64,000 bases of DNA, taken from NCBI GenBank assembly GCA_964455085.1, contig CAYVYJ010000008.1, positions 1,514 to 65,513 on the forward strand, given 5' to 3'. Made by a program: the position numbers and the translations under genes. The notes beneath the pieces are model-generated. The model was not told the DNA's origin. It was given only the letters and a program-made list of their open reading frames with translations, and made no database searches. Shown piece by piece: positions 15,137-29,838 of the stretch; the first letter of the stretch is position 1, and the number at the start of each line of letters is the position of its first letter. This stretch comes from an uncultured Planctomycetia bacterium. GTDB lineage: Bacteria; Omnitrophota; Gorgyraeia; Duberdicusellales; 4484-171.

Positions 15137-16126
15137 TTATTCCATCCAGGGCATCATTCCGCGGAGTTCCTTCCCAATTTTTTCAATCGGATGATTCTTT
15201 TCTTCTTCGGTTATTCTGTTGTAGTTTGGTCTACCTTCCTGATTCTCTTTTATCCACTCCCGAGCAAAAGAACCTGATTGAACTTCGCCAAGAATCTTCT
15301 TCATCTCCTCCCGAGTTTGTTTATTAACTATCCGCTTACCTCTGGTTATGTCGCCATATTCAGCAGTATCGGAAACTCTCTTTCTCATACCATAAATACC
15401 AGTCTTGTAAATAAGGTCAGTAATCAGTTTAAGTTCATGTAAACATTCAAAGTAAGCGATTTCCGGTTGATACCCGGCTTCGACTAAAGTGTCAAAACCA
15501 GCTTTTATCAACTCTGAAGTGCCCCCGCAAAGAACTGCCTGTTCACCAAAAAGATCAGTCTCGGTCTCTTCTTTAAAGGTAGTTTCAATAACACCGGCTC
15601 TTGTCCCACCGATAGCCTTAGCATAAGCTAAAGCTTTATTTCTAGCTTTGCCGCTAAAGTCCTGAAATACTGCGATTAAGCAAGGAACTCCCTTGCCTTG
15701 TTCGTACATCTCCCTTACCAAAGCACCCGGCCCCTTAGGCGCAACCATAAAAACATCAACGTTTTCCGGAGGTACAATTTGCTTAAAATGAATGTTAAAT
15801 CCGTGAGAAAATACTAAAGCATTGCCTTGTTTAAGGTTAGCCACTATAGAATTTTTATAGACCATACCCTGGACATGATCCTGGGTTAATATCTGGATGA
15901 TATCGGAAGCTGCTGCAGCATCTTCAGCAGACATAACCTCAAATCCGTCCTGTTTAGCTTGTTGATAGTTTGGTGTGCCTTTAAGTTCACTCACTAAAAC
16001 TCCCACTCCACTATCTCTTAAATTTAAAGCCTGACCCCGGCCCTGTATACCATAGCCAATAATAGCTATTTTAAGATTTTTAATTATATCCAGATTAGCA
16101 TCCTGATCATAATACATCTTAGCCAT
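15137..16126 (-). CDS. ilvC: Ketol-acid reductoisomerase
   Basis: The ORF track gives a start at 16141. The likely true start is MAKMYYD at 16126, with GAGGAGG RBS at 16134-16140. GYGxQG NADPH motif and class I KARI length. Confidence 0.9.
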
Positions 16127-16140
16127 CTTTAACCTCCTCA

Positions 16141-16212
16141 ATGAGACTTAGTCCGCCAAAGGCGGACTGTAGTCGAATTGATACTGAGGGTATGAAATAC
16201 CCGAAGTATCTT
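16141..16212. repeat. 72-nt structured intergenic repeat, copy A (two predicted hairpins), between ilvN and ilvC
   Basis: 65/72 nt identical to 29767-29838. Hairpin 1 AGUCCGCC-AAA-GGCGGACU. Hairpin 2 GGGUAU-GAAA-UACCC. Four of the 7 differences between copies are two compensatory pairs (C-G to U-A in hairpin 1, U-A to C-G in hairpin 2). Confidence 0.75.
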
Positions 16213-16213
16213 C

Positions 16214-16708
16214 TTACTTCCCGATTGCAATTCTCCCGGTCCTTACTAATTCTTTTAACTCTACACCCTTCAATTCTTTTAGAATTTCTTCTTCCTGGTA
16301 GTGATCCGAACAAATCTCTAAGAAATAATCCTCTTTAGTTTCCTCAATGATCTTTATTGGAAACTTCTTGACTAGTTTTTCTATAGTCTTTTTACTCTTT
16401 TTGCTTTTAACTATTTTGGCTAAAATCAGGTCTCGATCAATATAATCCCGACGGGTAAAGTCAATGACTGTAATTACATCAATTAACTTATGAAGTTGCT
16501 TTTTTATCTGTTCAAGAACCTTCTCATCCTGCGCGTCTACAACAATAGTCATACACGAGACAGAAGAATCTTCAGTTTCACCGACTGCTAAAGATTCAAT
16601 GTTATAGCCGCGGGCGCTAAACAAAGAAGAAACCCTTGCCAAAACTCCAAACCTGTTTTCAACTAAGGCTTGTATAGTATGACGCATTGTATTAAGCCAT
16701 ACCTCCAA
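16214..16708 (-). CDS. ilvN: Acetolactate synthase small (regulatory, ACT domain) subunit
   Basis: 164 aa. N-terminal ACT domain ([26 protein letters not shown]) typical of IlvH/IlvN. Overlaps the ilvB stop. Confidence 0.85.
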
Positions 16709-18368
16709 TCATTCGGTTAATGGCCTCTCCGGCCGGCACCATAGGAAATACGTTCTCCTCGGGTTCAATCAAAAAATCAGCCAAAACAGAACCTTTAAAT
16801 TTAAGGATTTCCTCTATTGCCTTCTTTACTTCGCTTACTTTCTTTACCTGTATGCCCTTTATCCCATAACCTTGGGCAACTTTCACAAAATCAGGATTCT
16901 TTAAGGGTGTTCCTGAATAACGCCGGTTATAAAAAAGCTCCTGCCATTGTCTAACCATTCCTAGGTAACCGTTATTCAAAATGATTATCTTGATCTTTAA
17001 ATTATAGGTATTCAAAGTAGCTAATTCCTGGATATTCATTTGTATCGAACCATCACCGGCAATAACAATCACTTCTTTCTTAGGGTTAGCTATCTTGGCT
17101 CCGATTGCCGCCGGGAAACCATAACCCATTGTTCCCAAACCGCCACTGGAGAGGAAATGACGAGGGTAATCAAACTTATAAAACTGTGATGCCCACATCT
17201 GATTTTGTCCTACTTCAGTGGTAATAATAGCCTTACCCTTGGTTTGGTGGTAAAGTTCTTCAATAACGTATTGCGGTTTAATTTTACCGGTCTTCTTATA
17301 TTTATATTTAAGCGGGTGCTTCTTCTTCCACTCTTTTATTTTCTTGTGCCAGTTTTCTAGATCAACTAATTTAGTCTCATCGACCTCTTCGGTGAGCTGA
17401 CCAACGATATTCTTAGCATCACCGACAATCGGAACATCAACGTTTATAGTCTTACTTATCGATGTAGGGTCAATATCAATATGAACTATCTTTGCCCCAG
17501 GGGCAAAAGCATCTAATTTTCCAGTAACTCGGTCATCGAAACGGGAACCAACCGAAATCAAAAGGTCACTCTCAGTAACTGCCAAATTAGCATATACAGT
17601 TCCGTGCATGCCCGGCATACCTAAAGATAGTTGATGGGTAGAAGGGAATCCTCCCAATCCCATAAGGGTAGTTGTGACCGGGATATTGGTTTTTTCAGCA
17701 AATCTTAATAACTCCTCACAAGCTCCCGCTATAATAACCCCTCCTCCGGCCATAATAACCGGCTTCTTAGAATTATAGATAAGTTTAAGTACTTTTTTTA
17801 TTTGTCCGGGATGTCCAAAATGAGTTGGACTATAACTTCTCATCTTTATTTTCTTAGGATAGTTAAAATCTGCCTCTTGTATCTGTGTATCAACCGGTAA
17901 ATCAATAACTATTGGCCCAGGCCTTCCGGTACTAGCTAGATAAAAAGCTTCTTTTACGATATAGGCAATATCCTTGGCATCCTTTATCAGATAATTATAC
18001 TTACTTATCGAACGGGTTATCCCGGTTACATCGGCTTCTTGAAAGGCGTCATTACCGATTAAAGATGTTTTTACCTGGCCGGTAATAGCTATAATCGGCA
18101 CAGAATCCATATGGGCAGTGGCAATACCAGTAGTCAAGTTAGTCGCCCCGGGCCCTGATGTAGCCACACAAACTCCTACCCTGCCTGTAGAACGAGCATA
18201 ACCATCAGCAGCATGAGCGGCTGCCTGCTCATGACGGGTCAAAATAAATTTTATCGGAGAATCATAGAGATAATCAAATAAAGGTATGACTGTCCCGCCG
18301 GGATAGCCAAAAATCACCTCTACTCCCTCCCGAATCAAACTCTCAATTAGAATTTTAGCACCTTTCAT
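16692..18368 (-). CDS. ilvB: Acetolactate synthase large subunit (ThDP-dependent)
   Basis: 558 aa. ThDP-binding GDGS...NN motif and N-terminal Pyr domain (GYPGG). Length and context are typical. Confidence 0.9.
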
Positions 18369-18467
18369 CTCTCTACTTTCCCTATATTTAGACTAGGCTT
18401 TAGCTAACCCCAATTATATCATTGCTTATTAAAAAAACAATAAGAAAGGATAAGCCTTAAGCTTTCC

Positions 18468-20039
18468 TTATTTTGGAGAGTCTTTAAGGAGTTTATACTC
18501 AACGCTATCGGATAAAGCCTGCCAAGATGCCTCAATAATATTTTCTGAAACACCAATAGTTGACCAGCTATCTTCCTTGTCCTGGGATTGAATCAAAACT
18601 CTCACCTTTGTTGCGGTCCCGCCTTTCTCATCAAGCACTCTAACCTTAAAATCAGTAAGGTGCATCCCAGAGAGTGTTGGATAAAACTTAGATAAAGCCT
18701 TTCTCAAAGCGTTGTCTAAAGCGTTGACCGGACCATCACCAAGAGAGGTTGTATGCTCTAATTTCCCGTTAATCTTCAACCTTATTATTGCCTCTGAAAC
18801 TAACTTGTTATCTTCACCTTTTTCAACAACAACTTTAAATCCCAGCAAATCAAAAAAGTTTTTATATTTCTTAAATTCTTTCTGAAGCAGCAGTTTAAAA
18901 GAACCTTCAGCAGCTTCAAACTGATATCCTTCTCTTTCTAACCTTTGGATCAGTTGATGTAAATTCTTAGCCTTATCTGACTTCTTATCTAAATCAAACT
19001 CTAGCTCTTTCGCCTTTACTACTAAAGTAGACTTACCAGCCAGTTCTGAAACAATAAGCTTCCGCTTATTCCCTACTAAAGCCGGATCAATATGCTCATA
19101 GGCCCGGGGATTTTTTATAACTGCATCAATATGTACTCCTCCTTTATGAGCAAAAGCGCTGTGACCTACAAAAGGATGATTATCGCGATGGACCATATTA
19201 GAGACTTCACTTACAAAATGCGAAAGATGGGTTAATTCAGCTAACCTTTTAGCAGATATAACCTTTTTCCCCATCTTAAGCTGCAATATGCTGATTATGG
19301 TCACTAAGTCAGCATTCCCACACCTTTCCCCGTAACCATTCATAGTCCCCTGGATCTGTATACAACCCTCATCTACACAAACTATCGAATTTGCCACTGC
19401 CAACCCTAAATCATTGTGGCAATGCACCCCAAAAGTGGCCAAAGAAAGTTTACTCTTTACCTCTTGAATTATTGTCTTAATTCCCCAAGGTAAATTTCCG
19501 CCATTGGTATCACAAAAAACAATTAGCTCAGCTCCCGACTCTTTAGCTACTCTTAAAGTCTTAAGGGCGTAACTGGGATCAGCCTTATACCCGTCAAAGA
19601 AGTGTTCAGCATCATAGAAGACACGTCTTCCTTTGCTTTTCAAGAAACTTATACTATCAGCAATAATCCTAAGATTATCATCAGGTTTTATCTTCAAAAC
19701 TTCTTTTACGTGTAAATTCCAGGTTTTACCGAAAATAGTAACACACTCAGTCTCGGAATCAAGTAGACTGATAAGATTCTGATCCTCCTTGGCCGGCTTT
19801 GAAGGATGAGCTGTAGAGCCAAAAGAGGTGAGTTTGCTATTTTTTAAAGAGTATTTCTTAAAATATTCAAAAAGCTCTTTATCCTTGGGATTAGAATAGG
19901 GCCAGCCACCCTCGATAAAATCAATGCCAAAATCATCTAACTTTTTGACGATATTGATCTTATCCTGACAGCTTAAAGAAATCCCTGGAGTTTGAGTTCC
20001 GTCCCTTAGGGTTGTATCGTAAATATATACTTTTTTCAT
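18468..20039 (-). CDS. cimA: Citramalate synthase / LeuA-family paralog
   Basis: 523 aa. IYDTTLRDGTQ and HCHNDLG motifs. C-terminal regulatory domain. A second LeuA-family member is in the same operon and the N-terminus is CimA-like. Confidence 0.7.
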   Translation of the reverse strand: MKKVYIYDTTLRDGTQTPGISLSCQDKINIVKKLDDFGIDFIEGGWPYSNPKDKELFEYFKKYSLKNSKLTSFGSTAHPSKPAKEDQNLISLLDSETECVTIFGKTWNLHVKEVLKIKPDDNLRIIADSISFLKSKGRRVFYDAEHFFDGYKADPSYALKTLRVAKESGAELIVFCDTNGGNLPWGIKTIIQEVKSKLSLATFGVHCHNDLGLAVANSIVCVDEGCIQIQGTMNGYGERCGNADLVTIISILQLKMGKKVISAKRLAELTHLSHFVSEVSNMVHRDNHPFVGHSAFAHKGGVHIDAVIKNPRAYEHIDPALVGNKRKLIVSELAGKSTLVVKAKELEFDLDKKSDKAKNLHQLIQRLEREGYQFEAAEGSFKLLLQKEFKKYKNFFDLLGFKVVVEKGEDNKLVSEAIIRLKINGKLEHTTSLGDGPVNALDNALRKALSKFYPTLSGMHLTDFKVRVLDEKGGTATKVRVLIQSQDKEDSWSTIGVSENIIEASWQALSDSVEYKLLKDSPK

Positions 20040-20060
20040 CTAACCTTTACCCTTTAACAC

Positions 20061-21302
20061 TTATGAATTTATTTTATCCAATTTAAATCCCTTGTGAAGC
20101 GCTTTTAAGGCTTTCTTGCCTACCCCTTTCTTTACCACGCAAGAGATGCTAATCTCTGAAGTTGAAATCATATCAATATTAATCTTATTTTTGGCTAAGA
20201 TTGAAAAACACTTTGCTGCTACTCCGGAATGAGTCTTCATCCCCACCCCCACGACAGAAACCTTAGCTATAGTCTCATCAGAAATAACTTCTCCAGCACC
20301 AATACGCTTGGAAATACCTTTTGAAATTTTAAGCGTCTTGATTAGATTATTTTTGGGGACGGTGAAAGAGATATCAGTTGCTTTTCTATGGCTTACATTC
20401 TGAACAATCATATCTATATTAATGTTCTGCCGACTCAACTCTTTAAACATATGGGCGGCAATTCCTGGTCTATCCGGAACGTTACACAAAGTTATTTTGG
20501 CCTCATTGCTGGTAAGAGTTATTCCCCTTACCACCGGTTCCTCTATTAATGGTGTCTTTCCCATAATTATTGTTCCCTCCTTTTTAGTAAAGCTACCCTT
20601 CACCTGTATCGGGATATTAAACTTCTTTGCTACCTCAACTGCCCTGGTGTGCATAACTTGGGCTCCACGAGATGCAAGCTCCAGCATTTCATCAAAAGTA
20701 ATATATTTTAATTTTTTTGCGTTAAGTACAATTCGCGGATCAGCAGTATAAATTCCTTCAACATCAGTATAAATCTCACATAAATCTGCCTTCAAAGCTA
20801 CAGCTAAAGCTACAGCGCTTAGGTCTGAGCCACCACGACCCAAAGTGGTTATCTCTAAGGCCGTACTTAAGCCTTGAAACCCGGCCACAATAACAATATT
20901 ACCATTTCGTAATTCTCTCTTTATGCGGTTAGTCTCGATCTTTAAAATCTTAGCCTGGGTATGATAGGTGTCGGTGATTATTCCAATCTGAGGCCCGGTA
21001 AATGATATTGCCCCTTTGCCTCTCTTATGAATCGCCATAGCCAACAAGGAACAAGAAATCTGCTCGCCAGTAGATATTAACATATCCATTTCGCGCTCCG
21101 AAGGATGAGGATTTATCTTCTTGGCCAAACTAACTAAATCATTAGTAGTACCCCCCATTGCCGAAATAACAACTACCACCCTATTGCCCTGCTTAGCGTA
21201 AGCAATAACTTTCTGGGCAGCTTTTTCTATCTTTGCGATATCAGCTACTGAGCTACCGCCGTATTTCTGAATAACCAATTTATTTTTTAATTTGCTCGAC
21301 AT
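20061..21302 (-). CDS. lysC: Aspartate kinase
   Basis: 413 aa. KYGGSS N-terminal kinase motif, amino-acid kinase fold and two C-terminal ACT domains. Confidence 0.9.
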   Translation of the reverse strand: MSSKLKNKLVIQKYGGSSVADIAKIEKAAQKVIAYAKQGNRVVVVISAMGGTTNDLVSLAKKINPHPSEREMDMLISTGEQISCSLLAMAIHKRGKGAISFTGPQIGIITDTYHTQAKILKIETNRIKRELRNGNIVIVAGFQGLSTALEITTLGRGGSDLSAVALAVALKADLCEIYTDVEGIYTADPRIVLNAKKLKYITFDEMLELASRGAQVMHTRAVEVAKKFNIPIQVKGSFTKKEGTIIMGKTPLIEEPVVRGITLTSNEAKITLCNVPDRPGIAAHMFKELSRQNINIDMIVQNVSHRKATDISFTVPKNNLIKTLKISKGISKRIGAGEVISDETIAKVSVVGVGMKTHSGVAAKCFSILAKNKINIDMISTSEISISCVVKKGVGKKALKALHKGFKLDKINS

Positions 21303-21401
21303 TTTATCTCATTCTTCCTTTAGTATCACTCATTTTACACTTATCCACTAACAAAGGCAATACCCCCCAACTCGCTCACTGTGATGCTCACCCTTGAAGT
21401 T

Positions 21402-22970
21402 TTAATCAGAACGGAGTTTTGCTAATTTCCTGAATTCCAATATTCCTAAAATACCAAAAACTATAAGAGCTAAAGATATTCCCGAAAGAAGATAATTACC
21501 ATCGCCCATGAAATCTGCTATTTTAAAACCTAAAGCAAAGATAGTTATCAATACCATTATAATAGCAGGAATAAGAGTAATTTTGTAGTTTTTTTTCCGA
21601 TAAAACAACCATCCGCTAACTACGACTAAAGCTAAACCAGCTACCAACTGATTAGATGCCCCAAACATTGGCCAAAGAATCTGCCATTTATTCATTACAG
21701 CTAAATACCCGGCAACCAGAACAACTACTAAGGTAGCCAGCCACTTATTATTTACTCCAAACAACTCTTGGGTTATAAGACGGGTTATCCGGGTTGCAGT
21801 ATCAAGAGTGGTCAAGATAAAAGCATTAAGAATCACTAAAGCAATGATCTGGGCATTATTGCCTAATAAGAATCCTACTTTGGCAAACCCCAAGGAAAAG
21901 ATTTCAGCGTAAGTCTTCTCTTGCGGTATATCTTTTAATCCAAAGGCTATTGAGAATAAAACTATCACTGCTAAAATACCTTCTAAAATCATGGCTCCAT
22001 AACCCACTTTAAGGGCGTCTTTCTCGCTATTTAACTGTTTACAGGTTGTTCCGCTAGCAACCAGGGAATGAAAACCAGATATTGCTCCGCAAGCTACGGT
22101 TATAAACATTATCGGGAAAAGATAACCAGCCGGGGCACTAAAACTAATCAGCTTTGCGCCGCTAAGCGGAAAGGGCTTGAGAATAATCCCGATGAAAGCT
22201 ACGATAATACCGAAAAATAGTAAAAAACTAGCTAAATAATCCCGGGGTTGAAGCAGGATATTTACCGGGATTATCGAAGCAAAAAAAGCATAAATAAAAA
22301 GAACAATAATCCAAAATGTATAAGGGTCAGCTAATTTTATTTGTAAAGGATAAAATCGACTCCAAAAAATCAAAATCCCTAAACAACTGATTCCGATTAA
22401 AGTGGCTAAAACAATATTTACTCTTAGCTTATAAATTAAGAACCCAATAACCATAGCAACCGGAATTAAGCCTAAAGAGGAACCTACTATCTGAGGTTGA
22501 CTAATAAAACTTTTGGCACAAATGGCAGCAAAAACAGCAATAACAACAATTAAGGCAAACCATAAGAATATCAGAAAAAACATGCTTCCTCTCTTAGAGG
22601 TGTACTTCCGGGAAAGCTGCCCAATACTTACTCCCTCCTCGCGCAGCGAAATCATAAGAGTAGAGAAGTCATGTACTGCCCCGATAAAAATAGTTCCCAG
22701 AATAATCCAGATCAGTGTGCCTAACCAACCCCACCAGATATAAGCTAAAATCGGTCCGATAATCGGCCCAGCTCCGGCAATAGAGGCAAAATGATGGCCA
22801 AAGATAACCAGCCAGTTTTTTGCCGGAACATAGTCAACACCATCATATTTAGTGTGGGCTGGTGTTCTCCTTGCCGGGTCAATGCCAAATACTTTAGCCA
22901 CAAAACGACCATAGAAAAGGTAGCCGCCGATAAGTGAACTAATCGCCAAGATAAAAAGGATTGTGCTCAT
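21402..22970 (-). CDS. cstA: Carbon starvation protein A family transporter
   Basis: 522 aa polytopic membrane protein with CstA N-terminal signature (WFLISGAGPI-like region). Confidence 0.7.
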   Translation of the reverse strand: MSTILFILAISSLIGGYLFYGRFVAKVFGIDPARRTPAHTKYDGVDYVPAKNWLVIFGHHFASIAGAGPIIGPILAYIWWGWLGTLIWIILGTIFIGAVHDFSTLMISLREEGVSIGQLSRKYTSKRGSMFFLIFLWFALIVVIAVFAAICAKSFISQPQIVGSSLGLIPVAMVIGFLIYKLRVNIVLATLIGISCLGILIFWSRFYPLQIKLADPYTFWIIVLFIYAFFASIIPVNILLQPRDYLASFLLFFGIIVAFIGIILKPFPLSGAKLISFSAPAGYLFPIMFITVACGAISGFHSLVASGTTCKQLNSEKDALKVGYGAMILEGILAVIVLFSIAFGLKDIPQEKTYAEIFSLGFAKVGFLLGNNAQIIALVILNAFILTTLDTATRITRLITQELFGVNNKWLATLVVVLVAGYLAVMNKWQILWPMFGASNQLVAGLALVVVSGWLFYRKKNYKITLIPAIIMVLITIFALGFKIADFMGDGNYLLSGISLALIVFGILGILEFRKLAKLRSD

Positions 22971-24160
22971 TTAGTAAGGAAATATTTAAGTAAATCCGTA
23001 CCTTTATCAAAATAGAGTGAACTATTCTGAGCTTCTCTCTCCGAGTATGAAGATAAATCATCTTTGTCTATTCCCGAACCAGAGATTAAGAAAGGTACCG
23101 GTTCAGCGGTATGGGTCCTTATACTGATAGGGGTGGGATGGTCTGGAGTAATTAGAATTCGGAAATCTTTATTCTTTAGCCTCTCCACTATGGTACCGAC
23201 AATGAGTTTATCTATCCGCTCAAGACAAGCTATTTTCATCCGCAAGTCTTGGTTATGGCCAGCCTCATCAGTAGCTTCTATGTGAACAAAGACAAAATCA
23301 CAATCTTCTAAGGCTGCCAGAGCCGCTTCTGCCTTACCCAGATAATTAGTATCGTAGTAGCCATTGGCACCTTCGACTTCTGGCACTTTCAGCCCAATTA
23401 TTTTTCCGATACCCTTGATTAAATCTACGGCTGAGATAACTGCGCCCTTAATGCCAAATTCAGTTTCAAAGAGCGGCATTGTCGGCTTGCCACCGCAACC
23501 CCAAAGCCAAATCATATTAGCCGGATTTTCGCCCAGATCTATTCTCACCTTATTGATCTCATGGGCAGCGAGAAAATCTTTAGAACGATTCATCAGGTCG
23601 GTAATAACCTCATTGCCCTTACCCCGCGGCAGACTTCGAGATATTTCCTTACCCATGATATCGTGAGGAGCAAGATACTTTAGTTTATCTAACCCTAAAT
23701 CCACTCCTCCCCGAATAACCATAAGGTTACGGTAACTAGTCCCGAAAAAAAACTGAATTTTGTCGGTCTTTAGATTATCATTGATGCAATCAATAAGGAT
23801 TTTAGCTTCTTTATCGGTTATATGTCCTCCGCTATAATCCTGGAGTTTACCTTCAGCTTCAGTGATAAGATTGCAACGAAAAGCTAAGTCTCTCTCACCT
23901 AATTCTACCCCCAAATTCACAGCCTCCAGCGGACCCCGGCCGGTATAGTAGATTTCCGGGTCATAACCAAGCAAAGAAAGATTAGCAATATCACTAGAAG
24001 GGGTAAATCCGCGGGGAATGGTCTTGGCTCTTCCTAATATCCCGGATTTAGCCAAGGAATCCATAAAGGGGATATCAGCCACCTCAAAAGGTGTCTTTGC
24101 TCCTAAAATATCAAGGGGATAATCGCTGGCACCGTCAGGAATAACTACAATATACTTCAT
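22967..24160 (-). CDS. apgM: Cofactor-independent phosphoglycerate mutase, archaeal-type
   Basis: 397 aa. IVVIPDGASD N-terminus and metalloenzyme phosphopentomutase/ApgM-like core (HIEATDEAGH). Confidence 0.8.
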   Translation of the reverse strand: MKYIVVIPDGASDYPLDILGAKTPFEVADIPFMDSLAKSGILGRAKTIPRGFTPSSDIANLSLLGYDPEIYYTGRGPLEAVNLGVELGERDLAFRCNLITEAEGKLQDYSGGHITDKEAKILIDCINDNLKTDKIQFFFGTSYRNLMVIRGGVDLGLDKLKYLAPHDIMGKEISRSLPRGKGNEVITDLMNRSKDFLAAHEINKVRIDLGENPANMIWLWGCGGKPTMPLFETEFGIKGAVISAVDLIKGIGKIIGLKVPEVEGANGYYDTNYLGKAEAALAALEDCDFVFVHIEATDEAGHNQDLRMKIACLERIDKLIVGTIVERLKNKDFRILITPDHPTPISIRTHTAEPVPFLISGSGIDKDDLSSYSEREAQNSSLYFDKGTDLLKYFLTK

Positions 24161-24299
24161 TGTTAAGCTTATTAACTTCTTACTGGTTTAAGTTATAGGA
24201 GAACTAACCTCTTTCCAACAGACCTTTATGGGTCTTATCAGAGTTTAATACAAAGAATATCTCCTTGCAAGATATTTTTCTAGTGATATATTCTATACT

Positions 24300-25061
24300 A
24301 TGATCAAGCAAGGAGATCTAATATTCCTCTATAACGATGAAAAAAGGAACTTCCTCCTTAAGGCCGAAGTAAAAACTCTCCACACTGACAAGGGTTTCTT
24401 AAAAATCGGCTCGCTTATCGGCAAAGAATTCGGCCAAAAAACAGAGACAAATCTAGGGTTCCCCTTCTATATCCTCCGCCCTTACCTCTATGAGCTGGTA
24501 ATGAAAGTGAGAAGAAAAACACAAATCCTTTATCCCAAAGATATTGGAATGATTCTTCTTCGGGGAAACATCTTTCCGGGAGCTAAGGTAATTGAGTCCG
24601 GCATAGGTAGCGGGGCATTAACTACGGCTTTGGCTAATTTCGTCAGGCCCAACGGCCGAGTCTATAGTTACGAACGAAATAAAGAATTTCTGGAAAATGC
24701 TAAGAAAAACTTAGAAAAAAATGGCTTAAGTGAATGGGTGGAACTCAAACATCAGGAAATTACCACTGAATTCGATGAAAAAGAAGCTGACTTTGTAATG
24801 ATTGATATTGGAAGCCCCTGGGAATTGATTGACGCTGCTTATAAATCACTAAAAGGGGGTTGCCGGCTTGCTACAATATGTCCCACCTTTGAACAACTTA
24901 CGAAAACTGTATTTAGTCTGGAAGAAAAAGGATTTGTCAATATTGAAACTATGGAAATTCTCCTGCGGAGAATTCTGGTAAGAAGAGGAAAAACCCGGCC
25001 GGAACAACGGATGCCCTGTCATACTGGCTGGTTAGTCTTCGCAACAAAAATTATTCTCTAG
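24300..25061 (+). CDS. trmI: tRNA (adenine58-N1)-methyltransferase
   Basis: 253 aa. GSGSGALT SAM-binding motif, TrmI/Gcd14 architecture. Sole + strand gene in a divergent position to apgM. Confidence 0.75.
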   Translation: MIKQGDLIFLYNDEKRNFLLKAEVKTLHTDKGFLKIGSLIGKEFGQKTETNLGFPFYILRPYLYELVMKVRRKTQILYPKDIGMILLRGNIFPGAKVIESGIGSGALTTALANFVRPNGRVYSYERNKEFLENAKKNLEKNGLSEWVELKHQEITTEFDEKEADFVMIDIGSPWELIDAAYKSLKGGCRLATICPTFEQLTKTVFSLEEKGFVNIETMEILLRRILVRRGKTRPEQRMPCHTGWLVFATKIIL

Positions 25062-25929
25062 TATCAAACTTATCTAAATCAGGCTTGGGCAAAGAATCGT
25101 AAGTAGGAATTTTCCTGCCGATAAAATAAGGGTAATCTAAAAATAGCTTTTCCCATAAACTACTTCTTTTGGGACCACAAATTCCTCTGCCAGAAGAGAG
25201 GATAAAAACTACCATCTCCTTTACTTCAGGAGAATCAATCTTCTTTAAATTTTCCAAAGCAGTTTTAAGGGGCAAGTCCTTACGGTAAAGGAAGTTATGG
25301 GCTTTTCTAATTTGACTTATCTGGTTAGCTTTAAAGCTTGCTCGCCTTAGGCCTACTGAATTGAGCCCCCAGATTCGGGAGTCTCCTACTAACAGCATAA
25401 AGGGAAGGATATCCTGGTTAACCCTGGAGAGACCTCCAACCATTGCTAACCTGCCAATCCTTACGAATTGATGGATAACTACATTTCCGGAAATAAAGAC
25501 CTTATCTTGAATTTCAACGTGACCGGCAACCAGAGTACCATTACAAATAACAATATTATTGGCTAACTTACAATCATGGGCAATATGTGAACAGGCCATA
25601 AGAAAATTACTGTCGCCTAAGAAGGTAGCCTTATCGGGAGAACTTGCGCAATTGATCGTAACATACTCCCGGATAATATTATTTTTTCCGATATAAACTT
25701 TACCCTTAGAGACTCTGGACTCTAAAACCTGGGGGGCTTCACCAATAACGCTACCGCTGCCAATAAAGGTATTATCACCAATATAAGTATTGGCCTTTAA
25801 GTGCACAAAAGCAGAAACCCTTACCCCCCGACCTAGATGAACCCCTCCTTCGATATAAGTATAAGGACCTATGCTTACCTCTTCTCCTAAAATTACATCT
25901 TTTTCGATAATTGCTTTAGGATGAATCAT
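25051..25929 (-). CDS. lpxA: Acyl-ACP--UDP-GlcNAc O-acyltransferase with about 30-aa C-terminal extension
   Basis: 292 aa. N-terminal MIHPKAIIEKDVILGEEVSIGPYTYIEG and hexapeptide LbH repeats throughout. The C-terminal helical domain is extended relative to typical 262-aa LpxA. Confidence 0.85.
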   Translation of the reverse strand: MIHPKAIIEKDVILGEEVSIGPYTYIEGGVHLGRGVRVSAFVHLKANTYIGDNTFIGSGSVIGEAPQVLESRVSKGKVYIGKNNIIREYVTINCASSPDKATFLGDSNFLMACSHIAHDCKLANNIVICNGTLVAGHVEIQDKVFISGNVVIHQFVRIGRLAMVGGLSRVNQDILPFMLLVGDSRIWGLNSVGLRRASFKANQISQIRKAHNFLYRKDLPLKTALENLKKIDSPEVKEMVVFILSSGRGICGPKRSSLWEKLFLDYPYFIGRKIPTYDSLPKPDLDKFDTRE

Positions 25930-26660
25930 TGTAAATCCCCATTTTTTAAAATAGTAACTTTACCGGCTAATGAAATGAATTCTAAACGCAAAGGAATCTT
26001 TTTTTCTTTATCTAACCAGAGATTAAATCTTCTTGCGCCTTTTCCAACCAGAAAGTAAGTATCCCGGTTTTCACCATTGGCCTTCAAGACTCTCTCCCTT
26101 ACCATCTTTATTTTTATCTTTTGAGTGGGAAGGTTAAAGCCCATCCATTTACCTGGCGTAAGCGTTAAGTCTTGAGGGAAAAAATAGAGAAGTTCCAAGA
26201 TATTATGGATTGGTTTGTCTTGGTAAATGACCCTCTCTCTATTTTTGGAATTACTTTTATTGATCCTAATATACCCGACATCTTGGTTGTAAGTTTCAGA
26301 AATCTTTTCCTTTCGGCCAAAGAAAACGATATCCCTCTCAACTCTTAGGGGAAGACCGGTTCTACTATCAAGGAAAACTTTTTCTTTCCCGGCTAAACTT
26401 AGAAGCTTAAGGATTTTTGTATTTGAATTCAGTAAAAGAATATCAGCAGTTACCCCGTTAATATCTTCTTGCCCTAAATACTCCCATTCGATATAACCAG
26501 AGGGAATTCCGTTAAAATTAACCTTATAAACCAGTTTATCCTGGTCTTTGAACCTTGCACCAATGTTTTCTCCGGAAACAAAACCGGCACCCGCTACAGT
26601 TATTGCCAAAAACATAACCCCACCAATAATAGAAGCAAAATTAAATCTCCTCATCTTCAC
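25926..26660 (-). CDS. Exported protein of unknown function
   Basis: 244 aa with signal peptide (AITVAGAGFVSG), predicted beta-rich. 4-nt overlap with lpxA start. Confidence 0.5.
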   Translation of the reverse strand: MKMRRFNFASIIGGVMFLAITVAGAGFVSGENIGARFKDQDKLVYKVNFNGIPSGYIEWEYLGQEDINGVTADILLLNSNTKILKLLSLAGKEKVFLDSRTGLPLRVERDIVFFGRKEKISETYNQDVGYIRINKSNSKNRERVIYQDKPIHNILELLYFFPQDLTLTPGKWMGFNLPTQKIKIKMVRERVLKANGENRDTYFLVGKGARRFNLWLDKEKKIPLRLEFISLAGKVTILKNGDLQ

Positions 26661-26672
26661 CTTAGGCCAATC

Positions 26673-28547
26673 TTAAAAAGAGACCAGTTTTTTGATCTCA
26701 TCTAACTTCTCTCTAGCAGCCAGCTCTCCTCTTTTAATAAATTCCGCTATCTTTTCAAATTCCATCCACCCTAACCCTTCGAGGTTAGTATGAATAACTA
26801 TATCAGCAATCTTGGCTGCCTGTTCCACAAATTGCTGCTGCATGGTTTCAATGCTTCCGAAAATAAAATCAAAAATATGAAAACGGCTACGTGTACGATT
26901 TATTCTTAAGGCTTGTTCGGACGAAAGAGATATATTAGAAGCAATTATCTTATGAGCATCATAATTTAAGAGAACCTTTGTCGGCAAGGGATTTAAGATC
27001 CCTCCATCTAGGAGAATATCCTTCTTGAAATTCACCGGTTCAAAGATACCGGGAAAAGCACAGCTAGCTGCTACAGCCTTATAAAGAAGCCCTTTGTCTA
27101 AAATTATCGATTTTCGCTTAAGAAAATCAAAGGCAACTATTTTAAGGTTGTGTTTTAAATCATAGAATGTCATGTCCTTGAAAATATTCCTAAATATACT
27201 CTCGAGCCTCTTAGCTCTCATAATCCCTCTAAAAGGGAAAGAGAAACCAGTCAGTGAGAATTTGTTAATTTTCTTCCCGAATTGATTGGAAAGTTTTTCG
27301 ATATCATCAACACTAAAACCAGCCGCCCAAAGAGCAGCAATTATTGCTCCGATACTTGAGCCACAAATAACATCTATGACTATATTATTTTGTACTAAAA
27401 CTTTTAGTACACCGATATGCGAAAACCCATAGGCAGCTCCGCTACCTAAGGCTATACCTAAGGTAACTTCACCAATTTCACGGGATATTCTTCGCAAAGT
27501 CTTAATATATTGCTGATCACTAACAGAAGGCAGAGTAGCATAAATCGGGTGATTAATCAACTTTTGCTTCTTGGCAAGTAGCAGACCTTCCTGATTAAAG
27601 CTTTCAGTAATAATAACTTTGATCTTTTCCTGATTCAAAGGGTTATGGGCCTTTAATTCCTTTAGCAGGGATGCACCCTTACTCAACTCCCTTTTTTGAG
27701 GAAAAAGAATAAAGTGTATTTGATGGGCAGATATGATAAAATCGTCAAAGTGTTTTTCTAAAAATTTATGGGGAATCTCATAAAGAATAAAGTGATAACT
27801 TTCGGAAAGAAAGTTTAGAAGGGGAAGAAAATTATCTCCAATATCAGCCCTTATGTAAAGATAAGCGACTTTACTCTTTATAATATACTTATCTAAAGAG
27901 CCCTCACTGAAAACCTTTAAAGATAAAATATTATTGCGCTTATTCGTAAGCGAGACCTCAGGAATAAAATGAGCAATTTCAGCCCCGGGAGGAATAATCT
28001 GAATACAGATAATGTCTTTTTTGGTCTGTTCCTTTAATCTTACTCCTAAATCAAACATGTAGCGAGTCTTGCCAGCTAAAGGACTCCCCATGATTCCTAT
28101 TTTTTTGGATTGGAATATCTTCTTAGGCTTAAATCGGGATTTCACTCTTTGAGATAGAATGCGTGCGAAATCCAAAGAAAGATAAGGATTCATCTTTAAA
28201 AATTCTTTAAAGGCTTTTTTCTCTGTCTGCAAAACGAGAGAAGTTTCGATTGATTTTGTAGTTACTGAATGCGGATCATCAGTGAGTAAAGAGATTATCC
28301 CGAAACAGGTGCCGCGCTTTAAGATCTCTATCTTACGATGCTTTGATCCGGATTGAGTTAAAACTGCAATTCTTCCCTTAATCAGAAAGTAGAGATAGTC
28401 TGGAAGGTCCTTTTCGTTATAAATTACCTGGTCATTTCTGTATTCTCTGACTTCAGATATACTAATTAATCTACTTATCTGATGCTTGCCTAAAGCATTG
28501 AATGGCGGGCTGTTACTAATAATTAATCTTATCTCCTTATCACTCAT
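26673..28547 (-). CDS. Cyclic-nucleotide-binding domain fused to patatin-like phospholipase (NTE-like)
   Basis: 624 aa. N-terminal CAP/cNMP-binding beta-barrel (about residues 10-135). C-terminal patatin domain with GxGxxG oxyanion region GIALGSGAAYG, GSSIG nucleophile Ser motif (GxSxG) and DGG catalytic Asp. Confidence 0.8.
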   Translation of the reverse strand: MSDKEIRLIISNSPPFNALGKHQISRLISISEVREYRNDQVIYNEKDLPDYLYFLIKGRIAVLTQSGSKHRKIEILKRGTCFGIISLLTDDPHSVTTKSIETSLVLQTEKKAFKEFLKMNPYLSLDFARILSQRVKSRFKPKKIFQSKKIGIMGSPLAGKTRYMFDLGVRLKEQTKKDIICIQIIPPGAEIAHFIPEVSLTNKRNNILSLKVFSEGSLDKYIIKSKVAYLYIRADIGDNFLPLLNFLSESYHFILYEIPHKFLEKHFDDFIISAHQIHFILFPQKRELSKGASLLKELKAHNPLNQEKIKVIITESFNQEGLLLAKKQKLINHPIYATLPSVSDQQYIKTLRRISREIGEVTLGIALGSGAAYGFSHIGVLKVLVQNNIVIDVICGSSIGAIIAALWAAGFSVDDIEKLSNQFGKKINKFSLTGFSFPFRGIMRAKRLESIFRNIFKDMTFYDLKHNLKIVAFDFLKRKSIILDKGLLYKAVAASCAFPGIFEPVNFKKDILLDGGILNPLPTKVLLNYDAHKIIASNISLSSEQALRINRTRSRFHIFDFIFGSIETMQQQFVEQAAKIADIVIHTNLEGLGWMEFEKIAEFIKRGELAAREKLDEIKKLVSF

Positions 28548-28551
28548 AAAA

Positions 28552-29763
28552 CTAGATTTCCAATCTATTTTCTTTAATTATCGTACTATAAGTAGCGGAA
28601 AAAGGCTTAGGAGTACGTTTAAAAGTCTTGTAGTCAACTCCGGCTAAGCCGAAACAGGGACCAAATCCCTTATCCCACTCGAAATTATCGATTAGAGACC
28701 ACCAAAGATAGCCTCTTATATCTACCCCTTCATTTATTGCTGCCGCTAAACTCCTCAAGTGTCTAATTAGAAAATCTTCATAAAGGGAATTTTCATATTC
28801 AGCAGTTCCGTTTTCGGTAATTATTATCGGCAAATTATATCTGGCTATTTTTTTAAGCAATCGGTAAAACCCTTGAGGATAAATATTCCAGCCAAGATAA
28901 TTTTTTCTTCCCCTCTTCGGTTTATAATCTGATTCTGCGCCGAATAAATCTTTAAACTTAGAGAACTCGCGACAGTAGTAATTTATAGCCAGGAAGTCTA
29001 AAGCATTCCGTTTGGTCAAGTAGTCAAGGAGCCAAAAATTAAAGTAACGGCTACGCAAACTGGCGCTTAAGGAGTTTAACCATAAGTTAAGGCCCGGGTG
29101 AGGCGAAAATACTCTTAAGCTCTTAGCTATGGAGACCTGTGCTGGAAGCGCACTTCCCTGATATATTCTCTTTAGTTCCTGATAGCCAGTGAGGTAAGCG
29201 GCTATAATATTATTCAAGACTCGCTTAGCCTGCTTAAACGACTTCACCCCTGGCGGCCAAATACCCCTAACAAAACTATTATAGATATAAACCAGAGGTT
29301 CGTTAAAAATAACCCAAAACTCTACCTTTTCTCTTAAAGCCTCTACTGTTTTGATTAAAAAATTTAAGAAATAATCAACATTTTTGGCTTCCAACCACCC
29401 CCCTCTTTTAACAAACCAAAGCGGATTGGTGAAGTGATGAAGAGTAATTATTGGTTTTAACTTATATTTAATCAAAGTATCCACTACTTCTTTGTAATGT
29501 GCAAGCTCCTGCTGCGAAAAATAAGAAGCATCGGGGTGGATTCTTGACCACTCCAGAGATATTCTTAAACTATTTAGATTAAAGCTGCTGGCGAGTTGGA
29601 AATCTTTTTTAAAAAGGCGATAGTGGTGACAAGCAGACCCCGCGACTCCCAATCCCTTTTCTTTTTCCCAAAGATACCAGTCACAATTAAAGTTTTCTCC
29701 TTCACATTGGTAACTGGAAAGAGCGGCTCCCCACAAAAAAGAAGAAGGAAATTGTATCTGCAT
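28552..29763 (-). CDS. GH1 family beta-glucosidase
   Basis: 403 aa. N-terminal FLWGAALSSYQCEG and catalytic nucleophile ITENG motif (TENG). NEP acid/base region present. Confidence 0.85.
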   Translation of the reverse strand: MQIQFPSSFLWGAALSSYQCEGENFNCDWYLWEKEKGLGVAGSACHHYRLFKKDFQLASSFNLNSLRISLEWSRIHPDASYFSQQELAHYKEVVDTLIKYKLKPIITLHHFTNPLWFVKRGGWLEAKNVDYFLNFLIKTVEALREKVEFWVIFNEPLVYIYNSFVRGIWPPGVKSFKQAKRVLNNIIAAYLTGYQELKRIYQGSALPAQVSIAKSLRVFSPHPGLNLWLNSLSASLRSRYFNFWLLDYLTKRNALDFLAINYYCREFSKFKDLFGAESDYKPKRGRKNYLGWNIYPQGFYRLLKKIARYNLPIIITENGTAEYENSLYEDFLIRHLRSLAAAINEGVDIRGYLWWSLIDNFEWDKGFGPCFGLAGVDYKTFKRTPKPFSATYSTIIKENRLEI

Positions 29764-29766
29764 TTA

Positions 29767-29838
29767 ATGAGACTTAGTCCGTCAAAGACGGACTGTAGTC
29801 GAATTAATACTGTGGGCATGAAATGCCCGCAGTATCTT
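29767..29838. repeat. 72-nt structured intergenic repeat, copy B, between tandem-ACT gene and GH1 gene
   Basis: See copy A. Hairpin 1 AGUCCGUC-AAA-GACGGACU. Hairpin 2 GGGCAU-GAAA-UGCCC. It fills the intergenic gap exactly (GH1 start 29763, ACT stop 29855). Confidence 0.75.

What the first reader, a model, noticed from the sequence alone, without database searches (positions are those of the whole stretch)
16141..29838. Twice-occurring 72-nt intergenic element with compensatory base changes in two predicted hairpins (structured RNA / REP-like repeat)
16141-16212 and 29767-29838 are 65/72 identical. Four of the seven differences are paired. In hairpin 1, AGUCCGCC-AAA-GGCGGACU versus AGUCCGUC-AAA-GACGGACU (C:G to U:A). 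In hairpin 2, GGGUAU-GAAA-UACCC versus GGGCAU-GAAA-UGCCC (U:A to C:G). Covariation that preserves pairing argues for selection on RNA secondary structure rather than a recent neutral duplication. Both copies exactly fill an intercistronic gap inside minus-strand operons (ilvN|ilvC and ACT-protein|GH1). Both are directly downstream of an ACT-domain protein gene and directly upstream of the next start codon, so the element is transcribed within the mRNA. Candidate roles are an intercistronic processing/stability element, a cis-regulatory structure or a miniature repeat family. Both copies also create similar spurious + strand ORFs (MRLSP.K.DCSRI.T.GMK.P.YL).
Basis: seen in the sequence. Interest (0 to 1): 0.7.

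Follow-up and report, generated by a model that had tools for sequence, protein, structure and literature searches.

The report
Small mobile hairpin repeat between genes
The two 72-base look-alikes are real copies of a widespread, previously uncatalogued family of small two-hairpin repeat elements that get inserted between genes in at least two bacterial phyla; they are not a regulator that belongs to the ilv operon.

Summary
The copies belong to a large family with a conserved core, NAAUGAGACUU[variable hairpin]GUAGUCGAAUUN, usually followed by a second hairpin. A pattern scan plus a covariation model found 144 copies in about 100 metagenome loci. The variable stem covaries strongly (0/500 shuffles), and no Rfam family matches. 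Hosts are Omnitrophota (the window), a Clostridia lineage and a contig from a bin labelled Planctomycetia.

The interpretation needs changing. G·U pairs and tandem G·A pairs show that the selected fold is on the + strand, antisense to both window operons. The element is an insertion: the same ilvN|ilvC junction is 2-12 nt in related species. In Clostridia the 69-nt core+hairpin-2 module is present or precisely absent inside another repeat. Copies occur in both orientations, in tandem arrays, between small accessory genes, and next to tRNAs flanked by 12-20-nt duplications of tRNA ends.

Best reading: a non-autonomous mobile element whose single-strand fold serves its own propagation. On the mRNA it is a passive, REP-like hairpin block. 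The mobilising enzyme is unknown.

The parts
16138..16181 (+). Copy A, core hairpin. P1 is T16138-T16142 paired with A16177-A16181. The tandem G.A loop is 16143-44 with 16175-76. P2 is GACT 16145-48 paired with AGTC 16171-74. T16149 pairs with G16169 as a wobble, and T16170 is bulged. P3 is 16150-57 paired with 16161-68, with loop AAA 16158-60.
   Evidence: Sequence; fold; covariation-model hit of 65.3 bits, E 4e-15; family covariation.
16180..16210 (+). Copy A, hairpin 2: GATACT-GA-GGGTAT-GAA-ATACCC-GA-AGTATC, a stem interrupted by tandem G.A pairs. It is followed by TT(C), after which the ilvN stop codon (16214-16216 on the - strand) begins.
   Evidence: A strict search for stem-GA-hairpin-GA-stem finds it here and in 5 other family members, against 0/102 control positions. 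It is 100% identical to hairpin 2 of the copy at the same site in L136.
29764..29807 (+). Copy B, core hairpin, with the same architecture shifted by +13626. Its P1 is TTAAT/ATTAA. The P3 pair is T29782-A29788 where copy A has C-G.
   Evidence: covariation-model hit of 65.6 bits.
29807..29836 (+). Copy B, hairpin 2: ATACTGTGGGCAT-GAA-ATGCCCGCAGTAT. It is a continuous helix in which G-C and U.G replace the G.A/A.G loop of copy A.
16124..16139 (-). Translation start region of ilvC: SD GAGGAGG (16139-16133), spacer TTAAAG, ATG (16126-16124). It directly abuts the left end of copy A and overlaps the outer P1 pairs.
   Evidence: L136 has the same SD plus spacer (16/17 identical) together with the element, but the empty sites of its close relatives do not. 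In L109 a similar string precedes an unrelated gene.
29761..29763 (-). ATG of the GH1 gene, only 3-4 nt from the left end of copy B. No SD lies between the element and the start codon.
16214..16216 (-). TAA stop codon of ilvN, about 1-3 nt from the right end of copy A. The element fills the whole stop-to-SD gap.

Best explanation
Each copy is a complete ~73-nt unit (core hairpin plus hairpin 2) of a family of non-autonomous, insertion-prone structured repeats. These are comparable in kind to REP elements, to palindrome-rich MITEs, and to the small hairpin-ended derivatives of IS200/IS605 transposons (here called PATEs).

Shown:
- The unit is a discrete insertion.
- The family is multi-copy and spans at least two phyla.
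- Its fold is conserved by covariation on one strand only.
- It has no coding capacity and no linked gene.

Inferred:
- The strand-specific fold is the substrate that a trans-acting enzyme recognises while the element is single-stranded. The invariant foot (P1, tandem G.A, P2 GACU/AGUC, U.G plus bulged U) would be the recognition site, and P3 and hairpin 2 would be free to vary.
- I consider single-stranded DNA and an HUH/Y1-type transposase (as for REP-RAYT or IS200/IS605 derivatives) the most likely version. About one in three for this sub-step.
- The compensatory differences between copies A and B then arose among propagating source copies, not through selection at the two window sites.

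In the window the copies lie antisense in two stop-to-start gaps, the only places in tight operons where an insertion is tolerated. Their reverse complement is transcribed within the mRNA as two stable hairpins (-32 and -34 kcal/mol) just upstream of the next start site. There it can act only secondarily, like an intercistronic REP: as a barrier to 3' exonucleases or a modulator of downstream translation.
For: Family and structure:
- 112 metagenome stretches match the core pattern.
- The covariation model finds 144 copies, 101 of them distinct, including divergent cores.
- 90.4% of cells are paired, 15/18 pairs change on both sides, 0/500 shuffles reach the observed values, and slid controls reach only 23-47% paired.

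Strand:
- G.U about 36 versus A.C about 9, with tandem GA at P3 pairs 3/4.
- Apical loops are mostly 3-nt loops of the C-GAA-G / C-GCA-G type. From my own knowledge, these give unusually stable DNA mini-hairpins.

Insertion:
- The ilvN|ilvC gap is 87 nt with the element in the window and in 12 same-species contigs.
- It is 12, 10 and 2 nt (stop-SD-ATG) in L123, L137 and L138, and carries a different remnant in L122.
- The sister L121 (94% nt identity in ilvC) has an unrelated 102-nt AT-rich insert there.
- In the Clostridia lineage the 69-nt module is present about 60 times, and precisely absent 14 times, inside an otherwise identical host repeat (..TTCGCGG|AAAGAYTAGCGAGATA). At most 2 nt of junction homology is shared.

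Dispersal:
- There is no orientation bias against GC skew or gene direction (45 versus 54).
- Neighbours are housekeeping genes with no recurrent family.
- No Y1 transposase or integrase lies near any copy in the 0.97 Mb held.
- Tandem arrays occur in L006, L011, L016, L024, L080, L081, L090 and L108.

Hosts and catalogues:
- Hosts are Omnitrophota and Clostridia.
- No Rfam family reaches threshold.
- No promoter or terminator lies at the window copies.
Against: - No transposase or recombinase has been tied to the family, so mobility is inferred from presence/absence, not seen.
- IS200/IS605-type elements show a strong bias for the lagging-strand template. None is seen here, and in the window the folded strand is the leading-strand template.
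- Longer family members next to tRNAs are flanked by 12-20-nt direct repeats that start or end at the mature tRNA terminus. Peel-and-paste ssDNA transposition does not predict this.
- At the ilvN|ilvC site the window and the non-sister L136 share 38/38 nt of hairpin 2 plus P1, and 16/17 nt of SD plus spacer. Third codon positions nearby are only 55-59% identical, and P2-P3 is swapped. This needs recent lateral spread, very site-specific insertion, or local selection.
- Nine of ten independent tRNA-linked loci have the element co-oriented with the tRNA. That would also fit an expressed RNA.
Confidence: 0.6

Rival explanations
1. This is a structured RNA with a function of its own on the + strand: a small RNA or leader module related to the GA-cis motif. 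It would be made by co-transcription with tRNA operons or by read-through, and bound by a protein that recognises the helix-tandem-GA-helix foot. Copies inside operons would be silent or antisense by-products.
For: - The fold is strand-specific and the core is invariant while the stems covary, as in protein-binding RNAs.
- Nine of ten tRNA-linked loci are co-oriented with the tRNA. In L027 the native tRNA promoter must transcribe the element.
- The architecture (two hairpins, each framed by GA...GA) resembles Rfam GA-cis RF02987, which gives a sub-threshold hit on L053 (22.9 versus 34.7 bits).
- Hairpin 2 is conserved at the ilvN|ilvC site across lineages with diverged synonymous sites.
Against: - About half of all copies are antisense to every neighbouring gene.
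- No promoter lies next to the window copies.
- The module is precisely present or absent inside another repeat.
- Loops are mostly 3-nt loops rather than GNRA/UNCG tetraloops.
- The window copies give no GA-cis hit even at E <= 10.
Confidence: 0.17
2. One reading: a cis-acting element of the operon mRNA (- strand) that controls processing, stability or translation of ilvC and GH1, kept at these sites by selection.
For: - Both copies fill a stop-to-start gap exactly and are fixed in all 12 same-species contigs at each site.
- The - strand RNA also folds stably, and the ilvC SD stays largely unpaired.
- The left end abuts a reverse-complemented SD plus start codon in 10 of 81 unique flanks, against 0.5% at control positions.
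- Hairpin 2 and the SD/spacer are identical in the window and L136.
Against: - G.U and G.A statistics put the selected fold on the other strand.
- The element is missing from the same junction in the sister species and in four other relatives.
- The genes next to family copies are unrelated, and orientation is mixed.
- Copy B leaves GH1 with no SD at all, which is not what a translation-promoting element would do.
Confidence: 0.08
3. A folded-strand recombination site, working like an integron attC site. The conserved foot would be the recombinase-binding box, the bulged base an orientation mark, and P3 the variable terminal structure. Units and the genes between them would be shuffled as cassettes.
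For: - The architecture parallels attC: paired boxes, a small unpaired spacer, an extrahelical base, a variable top and strand specificity.
- In L044 three 195-nt copies lie among small accessory genes (Imm63, RelE-like toxin plus antitoxin; PLD, HNH and FkbM-type genes flank the array). In L020 copies precede DUF1353 and MazG-like genes.
- A half copy in L044 breaks at GGCT|GTAGTC, and a partial copy ends an array in L090 at GAGACT|. Both breaks are at the P2/P3 junction.
- P2-P3 is swapped between the window and L136 while the rest is identical.
Against: - There are no RYYYAAC/GTTRRRY boxes.
- No integrase lies in the DNA held around the arrays.
- Most copies are solitary, between housekeeping genes.
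- attC recombination does not create the 12-20-nt flanking duplications seen at tRNAs.
Confidence: 0.08
4. An ordinary cut-and-paste MITE moved as double-stranded DNA by a DDE transposase that recognises short terminal inverted repeats. The hairpins would be incidental.
For: - Longer members end in ...TTCATTA, the inverted copy of the left end TAATGA.
- They are flanked by direct repeats of 12-20 bp in L004, L027, L034, L059, L066 and L068.
Against: - A double-strand mechanism gives no reason for one-strand G.U/G.A bias or for covariation of P3.
- The repeat lengths are highly variable, and five of six coincide with tRNA termini.
- The short units, in the window and in the Clostridia host repeat, have no duplication longer than 2 nt.
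Confidence: 0.07

Closest known systems
REP / BIME / REPIN elements mobilised by RAYT (TnpA-REP) transposases
   Same: Both are short, imperfect, extragenic palindromes present in many copies. Both occur singly or in clusters and mosaics (strikingly so in the Clostridia contigs). Both sit in intercistronic gaps, where the transcribed hairpin can stabilise upstream mRNA. Both have a strand-specific fold with a bulge, and a GTAG tetranucleotide is present (CTGTAGTC).
   Different: Here GTAG lies 3' of the variable palindrome, not at the 5' foot. Arrays are direct, not inverted doublets. The core sequence is kept across phyla, whereas REPs are usually species-specific. No RAYT gene has been linked.
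IS200/IS605-derived miniature elements (palindrome-associated transposable elements, PATEs)
   Same: The unit has two imperfect hairpins of similar type, one at each end. Presence/absence is precise without a target duplication. One specific strand carries the structure.
   Different: There is no lagging-strand orientation bias. No fixed 4-5-nt target is seen to the left (only a loose C-T-Y). The hairpins reach the very ends of the unit. Long members carry 12-20-nt flanking repeats. No TnpA or TnpB is nearby.
GA-cis RNA motif (Rfam RF02987; Weinberg et al. 2017, PMC5737381 family list)
   Same: Both have two consecutive hairpins, each framed by conserved GA...GA, with CGAAG-type loops. My recollection, not checked here, is that GA-cis comes from Firmicutes and metagenomes. 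It is the only Rfam model that gives any signal.
   Different: The best score is 22.9 bits against a gathering score of 34.7, on one family member only. The window copies score nothing. The outer stem and flanks of GA-cis (AGGAGG...CCGACGA) do not align with P1/P2 of this family. GA-cis is annotated as a cis-regulatory or small RNA, with no function tested.
Integron attC sites
   Same: Both have a folded single-strand architecture with conserved paired boxes, a small unpaired spacer, an extrahelical base and a variable terminal stem. Some members separate small accessory genes in arrays.
   Different: The family has no R/L box consensus, no integrase and an extra second hairpin. Most copies are solitary in housekeeping operons.

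Membership tests
REP / RAYT system | Short, imperfect, extragenic palindrome present in many copies per genome | tested here: met
   There are 144 copies in about 100 loci, several per contig in the Clostridia lineage, and all are intergenic. Only 2 copies were found in the 64-kb window.
REP / RAYT system | Conserved GTAG/GTGG tetranucleotide at the 5' foot of the palindrome | tested here: not met
   GTAG is invariant, but it lies on the 3' side of the variable stem on the folded strand (CUGUAGUC).
REP / RAYT system | A RAYT (Y1 HUH transposase) gene flanked by REPs in the same genome | tested here: inconclusive
No complete genome could be searched.
IS200/IS605-derived miniature element (PATE) | Subterminal imperfect hairpins at both ends on one strand | tested here: met
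   The core hairpin and hairpin 2 make up the whole unit, and the structure is strand-specific.
IS200/IS605-derived miniature element (PATE) | Insertion without target duplication, and precise excision | tested here: met
   Empty and filled versions of the Clostridia host repeat differ by exactly the 69-nt module, with at most 2 nt of shared junction. The window insertions show no duplication. Longer members near tRNAs do carry 12-20-nt repeats.
IS200/IS605-derived miniature element (PATE) | Fixed 4-5-nt target immediately 5' of the left end, and orientation bias to the lagging-strand template | tested here: not met
   Left flanks share only a loose C-T-Y. On the element strand GC skew is positive in 45 loci and negative in 54.
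DDE-type MITE | Terminal inverted repeats plus a target-site duplication of fixed length | tested here: not met
   Long members have a 6-8-nt inverted terminus (TAATGA...TCATTA). Their direct repeats vary from 12 to 20 nt and are absent from the short units.
Integron attC | R''/R' boxes RYYYAAC...GTTRRRY, and an IntI integrase at the array | tested here: not met
   No such boxes exist in the core or in the 195-nt L044 unit. tblastn with IntI1 and XerD found only one tyrosine recombinase, in the control locus L123 at 20.7 kb.
GA-cis RNA (RF02987) | Score at or above the Rfam gathering threshold (34.7 bits) | tested here: not met
   The best hit is 22.9 bits, on L053. The window copies give no hit at E <= 10.
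Known self-cleaving ribozymes, riboswitches, T-box and leader RNAs | Match to any curated covariance model | tested here: not met
   Rfam 15 gives 0 hits at gathering score in the 64-kb window, and only tRNAs, a cspA thermoregulator and a group I intron elsewhere in the loci.
Operon-specific cis-regulatory mRNA element | Conserved at the orthologous position, in sense orientation, in related genomes | tested here: not met
   It is absent from ilvN|ilvC in L121, L123, L137 and L138. The selected fold is antisense.

The most novel reading that the evidence does not exclude
The family may be the footprint of a so-far undescribed mobility or recombination system that acts on a folded single strand (DNA, or RNA through reverse transcription) and targets gene boundaries. 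Four observations point that way.
- It lands exactly between a stop codon and the next start, with a ribosome-binding site at its antisense end.
- It lands in the D- or T-loop region of tRNA genes, with a duplication that runs precisely to the mature tRNA end.
- It builds tandem arrays and separates accessory-gene cassettes.
- Its variable stem appears to be exchanged at the P2/P3 junction while the rest stays identical across diverged species.

Each feature was observed here. None is explained by REP/RAYT, IS200/IS605, DDE MITEs or integrons as currently described.
Probability: 0.22. Interest if true: 0.8.

Novelty: new variant of a known kind. Interest (0 to 1): 0.58.

Why it matters
First, it is a caution. 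Compensatory substitutions between two copies prove selection on structure, but not a function at the place where the copies sit. Here the constraint most probably acts on the element's own propagation.

Second, the family is large, spans Omnitrophota and Clostridia, covaries strongly and is absent from Rfam. It is therefore a ready-made new entry for catalogues of RNA and DNA structures. It would also remove false 'riboswitch-like' calls in genomes assembled from metagenomes.

Third, several features make it a tractable lead to a recognition enzyme and possibly to a new insertion mechanism:
- a foot that barely varies while the stems covary;
- a ribosome-binding site abutting the antisense end;
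- duplications of tRNA ends;
- occupancy of the same site in non-sister lineages.

For the ilv operon itself the practical consequence is modest. A very stable hairpin block sits between ilvN and ilvC, and may shift their expression ratio.

Tried and rejected
- **Rfam:** a gathering-threshold scan of the window and of 16 loci, plus four E-value-mode scans, gave nothing except the sub-threshold GA-cis hit.
- **Genome collection:** my first pattern fixed the window's own P3 sequence, so it was too narrow.
- **Other collections:** viral contigs gave no copy with either pattern. Plasmids gave no similarity.
- **Literature:** searching for the core strings returned only primer coincidences. A MITE/tRNA search found nothing that matches. 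The supplement that describes GA-cis is not held.
- **Linked protein:** clustering of 533 neighbouring ORFs, Pfam on the largest clusters, and tblastn with transposases and integrases found no linked protein.
- **L044 array:** extending it through a neighbouring methyltransferase showed only ordinary genes beyond it.
- **Replication-strand explanation:** rejected, because there is no bias and the window and tRNA contexts point opposite ways.
- **Ideas considered from memory and dropped:** box C/D or K-turn RNA (no 3-nt bulge; P1 covaries right up to the GA pairs), hammerhead or hairpin ribozymes (core nucleotides missing), tRNA-like T-arm, CRISPR repeats, single-strand plasmid origins, and casposon-type integration. 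The casposon idea was not tested.
- **Coding potential:** the + strand ORFs are not conserved.
- **Errors to correct:** an earlier notebook entry gave the extra covarying pair as 16140/16181; the correct pair is 16139/16180. Searches were input errors (wrong strand notation and wrong start coordinate) and gave no result.

Full report
**1. The observation.**
Window 16141-16212 and 29767-29838 are 65/72 identical, and similarity stops within a few bases on either side. A degenerate 30-mer hits only these two places, with none expected by chance. Neither a fuzzy search nor a covariation model finds a third copy in the 64 kb.

On the + strand each copy folds into two hairpins.
- Copy A core hairpin: P1 T16138-T16142 with A16177-A16181; a 2x2 loop GA/GA; P2 GACU/AGUC; a U.G pair next to a bulged U (16170); P3 16150-57 with 16161-68.
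- Copy A hairpin 2: 16180-16210.
- Copy B is the same, shifted by 13626.

Six of them form three compensatory pairs. The other two replace a tandem G.A/A.G loop by G-C plus U.G. Folding energies are 7-9 standard deviations below shuffled sequence.

**2. It is one family among many copies.**
The only genome-collection scan used a pattern that was too narrow and gave one true relative, L002. A metagenome scan for TGAGACTTAG-N11-30-CTGTAGTCGAA returned 112 stretches.

Their alignment shows an invariant foot, NAAUGAGACUU...(G/U)UAGUCGAAUUN, around a stem of 11-30 variable bases. A covariation model built from 19 of them finds 144 copies in 100 sources, 101 of them distinct. These include divergent ones in which even the three basal P3 pairs covary: UAG/CUG becomes UGA/UCG, UCG/CGG or UGC/GCU.

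On that alignment:
- 90.4% of cells pair;
- 15 of 18 pairs change on both sides;
- no shuffle out of 500 reaches the observed values;
- sliding the partners drops pairing to 23-47%.

**3. Which strand.**
In P3, G.U outnumbers A.C by about 36 to 9. The recurrent internal loop is 5'-GA-3' opposite 5'-GA-3' in a pyrimidine-GA-purine context. On the other strand this would be UC/UC. The same U-GA-G...C-GA-A frame recurs at the P1/P2 junction, at the top of long P3 stems, and in hairpin 2 of a subset of copies.

The selected fold is therefore on the strand written TGAGAC..., which in the window is antisense to both operons.

Apical loops are mostly 3-nt loops such as C-GAA-G, C-GCA-G and C-GGA-G. 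From my own knowledge these are the loops of very stable DNA mini-hairpins, whereas functional RNAs favour GNRA or UNCG tetraloops. This is a hint towards DNA, not a proof. Both strands fold stably under either RNA or DNA parameters.

**4. It is an insertion.**
IlvC homologues identify the window as Candidatus Omnitrophota. All 12 same-species contigs carry both copies. The ilvN|ilvC junction in relatives reads as follows.

| Locus | Relation to the window (ilvC) | State of the junction |
|---|---|---|
| L123 | more distant clade | TAA-GGGAGG-AAAAAT-ATG, 12 nt, empty |
| L137 | more distant clade | 10 nt, empty |
| L138 | outlier | 2 nt, empty |
| L121 | sister, 94% nt identity | unrelated 102-nt AT-rich insert |
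| L122 | more distant clade | 48-nt remnant with a different hairpin 2 and no core |
| L136 | more distant clade, 81% nt identity | filled, see section 5 |

In the second host lineage (closest named MurE homologues are from Clostridia, 60-65% identity), the 69-nt module sits inside another repeat. The module is TAAATGAGAC...GAGTCGGG, that is, core plus hairpin 2. About 60 copies of that repeat contain it and 14 lack it precisely (GGTTAGCGAACCGCATTCGCGG|AAAGAYTAGCGAGATA). At most two bases are shared at the junction.

This defines the unit, and the two window copies are complete units.

**5. A puzzling case at the same site.**
L136 belongs to the clade of L123, L137 and L122 (88-92% nt identity in ilvC). 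It is only 81% identical to the window, and 55% at third codon positions. Yet it carries an element at ilvN|ilvC.
- 38/38 bases of P1' plus hairpin 2 are identical to copy A.
- 16/17 bases of SD plus spacer are identical to the window.
- P2 has covaried (AACU/AGUU).
- P3 is a wholly different hairpin.

Its closest relatives have empty sites with a different spacer. So either near-identical units entered the same junction independently, or a small patch moved laterally. In both cases the central hairpin was exchanged.

A similar string, TTGAGGAGGTAAAAGATG, precedes an unrelated gene next to the L109 copy. This suggests that, in this subfamily, the ribosome-binding site and spacer travel with the element.

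More generally, a reverse-complemented SD plus start codon abuts the left end in 10 of 81 unique flanks, against 0.5% at control positions. Copy B is the exception: it leaves GH1 with no SD.

**6. Other contexts.**
- **Orientation.** Relative to neighbouring genes and to GC skew it is about even, and neighbours are ordinary housekeeping genes.
- **tRNA genes.** Where a tRNA gene lies within 400 nt, 12 of 13 pairs (9 of 10 loci) are co-oriented.
- **Flanking repeats.** Longer members are bracketed by direct repeats of 20, 12, about 15, 17 and 19 nt in L004, L027, L059, L034 and L068. These repeats are the 5' or 3' terminal part of the adjacent tRNA. They run from the D- or T-loop to within one base of the mature end, so that one intact tRNA remains. 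L066 has a 12-nt non-tRNA repeat.
- **Termini.** These long members end in ...TTCATTA, an inverted copy of the left end.
- **Arrays.** Tandem arrays are common. L044 has three 195-nt copies among small accessory genes (Imm63, RelE-like toxin and antitoxin; PLD, HNH and FkbM-type genes flank the array). L020 has copies before DUF1353 and MazG-like genes.
- **Broken copies.** A half copy in L044 and the partial copy that ends the L090 array both break at the P2/P3 junction.
- **Enzymes.** No transposase or integrase lies near any copy in the 0.97 Mb held.

**7. Interpretation.**
The facts that bear most weight point to a non-autonomous mobile repeat:
- a discrete unit that is present or absent;
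- many dispersed copies in both orientations;
- no coding capacity;
- a fold selected on one strand whatever the local transcription direction.

Its structure would be needed for its own propagation as a single strand. Under this view the compensatory differences between copies A and B arose among source copies.

I rate this general statement at about 0.6. Within it, the ssDNA/HUH-transposase version (REP-RAYT or IS200/IS605-like) gets roughly one in three. The absence of a replication-strand bias and the tRNA-end duplications do not fit it.

In the window the practical effect is that each mRNA carries the reverse complement, two stable hairpins, between a stop codon and the next start. That is the situation of intercistronic REPs in enterobacteria, which from established knowledge can protect upstream mRNA and alter the expression ratio. 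This effect is inferred, not shown.

**8. Rivals.**
- **A + strand RNA with its own function.** This is favoured by the tRNA co-orientation, by the resemblance to GA-cis (22.9 versus 34.7 bits on one member) and by the conserved hairpin 2. It is disfavoured by the antisense copies, by the lack of promoters and by the precise presence/absence.
It is contradicted by the strand of the fold and by its absence in relatives.
- **An attC-like recombination site.** This fits the architecture, the arrays and the junction breakpoints, but it has no boxes and no integrase.
- **A DDE-type MITE.** This explains the termini and the repeats of long members, but not single-strand selection.

**9. Novelty and score.**
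No Rfam model covers the family, and nothing turned up in viral contigs, plasmids or the searchable literature.

In kind it is a small structured interspersed repeat, which is known. Several features are unusual, so I file it as a new variant of a known kind:
- a core conserved across at least two phyla;
- the tandem-GA architecture;
- a ribosome-binding site abutting the antisense end;
- the tRNA-end duplications;
- occupancy of the same site in non-sister lineages.

Interest is 0.58. A roughly one-in-five chance remains that it marks an undescribed mobility or recombination mechanism.

Noticed in passing
L121:9899-10000 and L121:9290-9424: The sister species of the window (94% nt identity in ilvC) has an unrelated 102-nt AT-rich insert at the same ilvN|ilvC junction, with tandem TCATTTA repeats and its own GGGGG ribosome-binding site. 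It also has a 135-nt AT-rich insert between ilvB and ilvN, where the window has about 4 nt. Intercistronic gaps of this operon seem to be insertion hot spots.
   Followed up: partly
L123:10991-11145: A 155-nt insert lies between ilvC and leuA, where the window has 3 nt. It is made of different small hairpins (CTTGCGAAGCAAG, GTTGAGGCGAAACCTCAAC) without the core. It may be another repeat family with the same GCGAAGC-type loops.
   Followed up: no
L021:2060-2660, L133 intergenic gaps, and the alignment: The Clostridia-lineage contigs have cell-wall (dcw) gene clusters whose intergenic gaps are swollen to 100-600 nt by mosaics of several nested repeat families. The related contig L132 has gaps of 3-40 nt. 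This is a BIME-like repeat landscape in an uncultured gut or sediment Clostridia lineage.
   Followed up: partly
window:29761-29767: The GH1 gene starts 3-4 nt after the element with no recognisable ribosome-binding site, although its N-terminus looks complete (MQIQFPSSFLWG...). How it is translated is unclear: by coupling, as a leaderless mRNA after processing, or by some other route.
   Followed up: no
L053:557-803: A group I intron scores 92 bits, E 8e-23, about 500 nt from an element copy.
   Followed up: no
L005:489-930: A match to the cspA thermoregulator (90 bits) lies in a Clostridia-lineage contig, an unexpected host for this enterobacterial family model.
   Followed up: no
window:1-64000: No Rfam family reaches threshold anywhere in the 64 kb. 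That includes the region upstream of the ilv-leu genes, where T-box or leader elements are common in other phyla. About 90% of the genes are on the - strand, and GC skew is negative on the + strand throughout.
   Followed up: partly
L027:253-291 and L058:3049-3074: Two minimal relatives of the core were found. L027 has TTAATGAG-hairpin-CGAATTAA without P2. L058 has CAATGACTGTAGTCGAATTG without P3. They could be ancestral or decayed forms, or empty recombination products.
   Followed up: no
L002:283-318: The only genome-collection hit is a 4.2-kb contig of a bin labelled Planctomycetia. Its element is again antisense between two co-oriented genes: it follows a glucose-6-phosphate-isomerase-like gene and abuts the SD of the next gene. 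The short contig may be mis-binned Omnitrophota.
   Followed up: no
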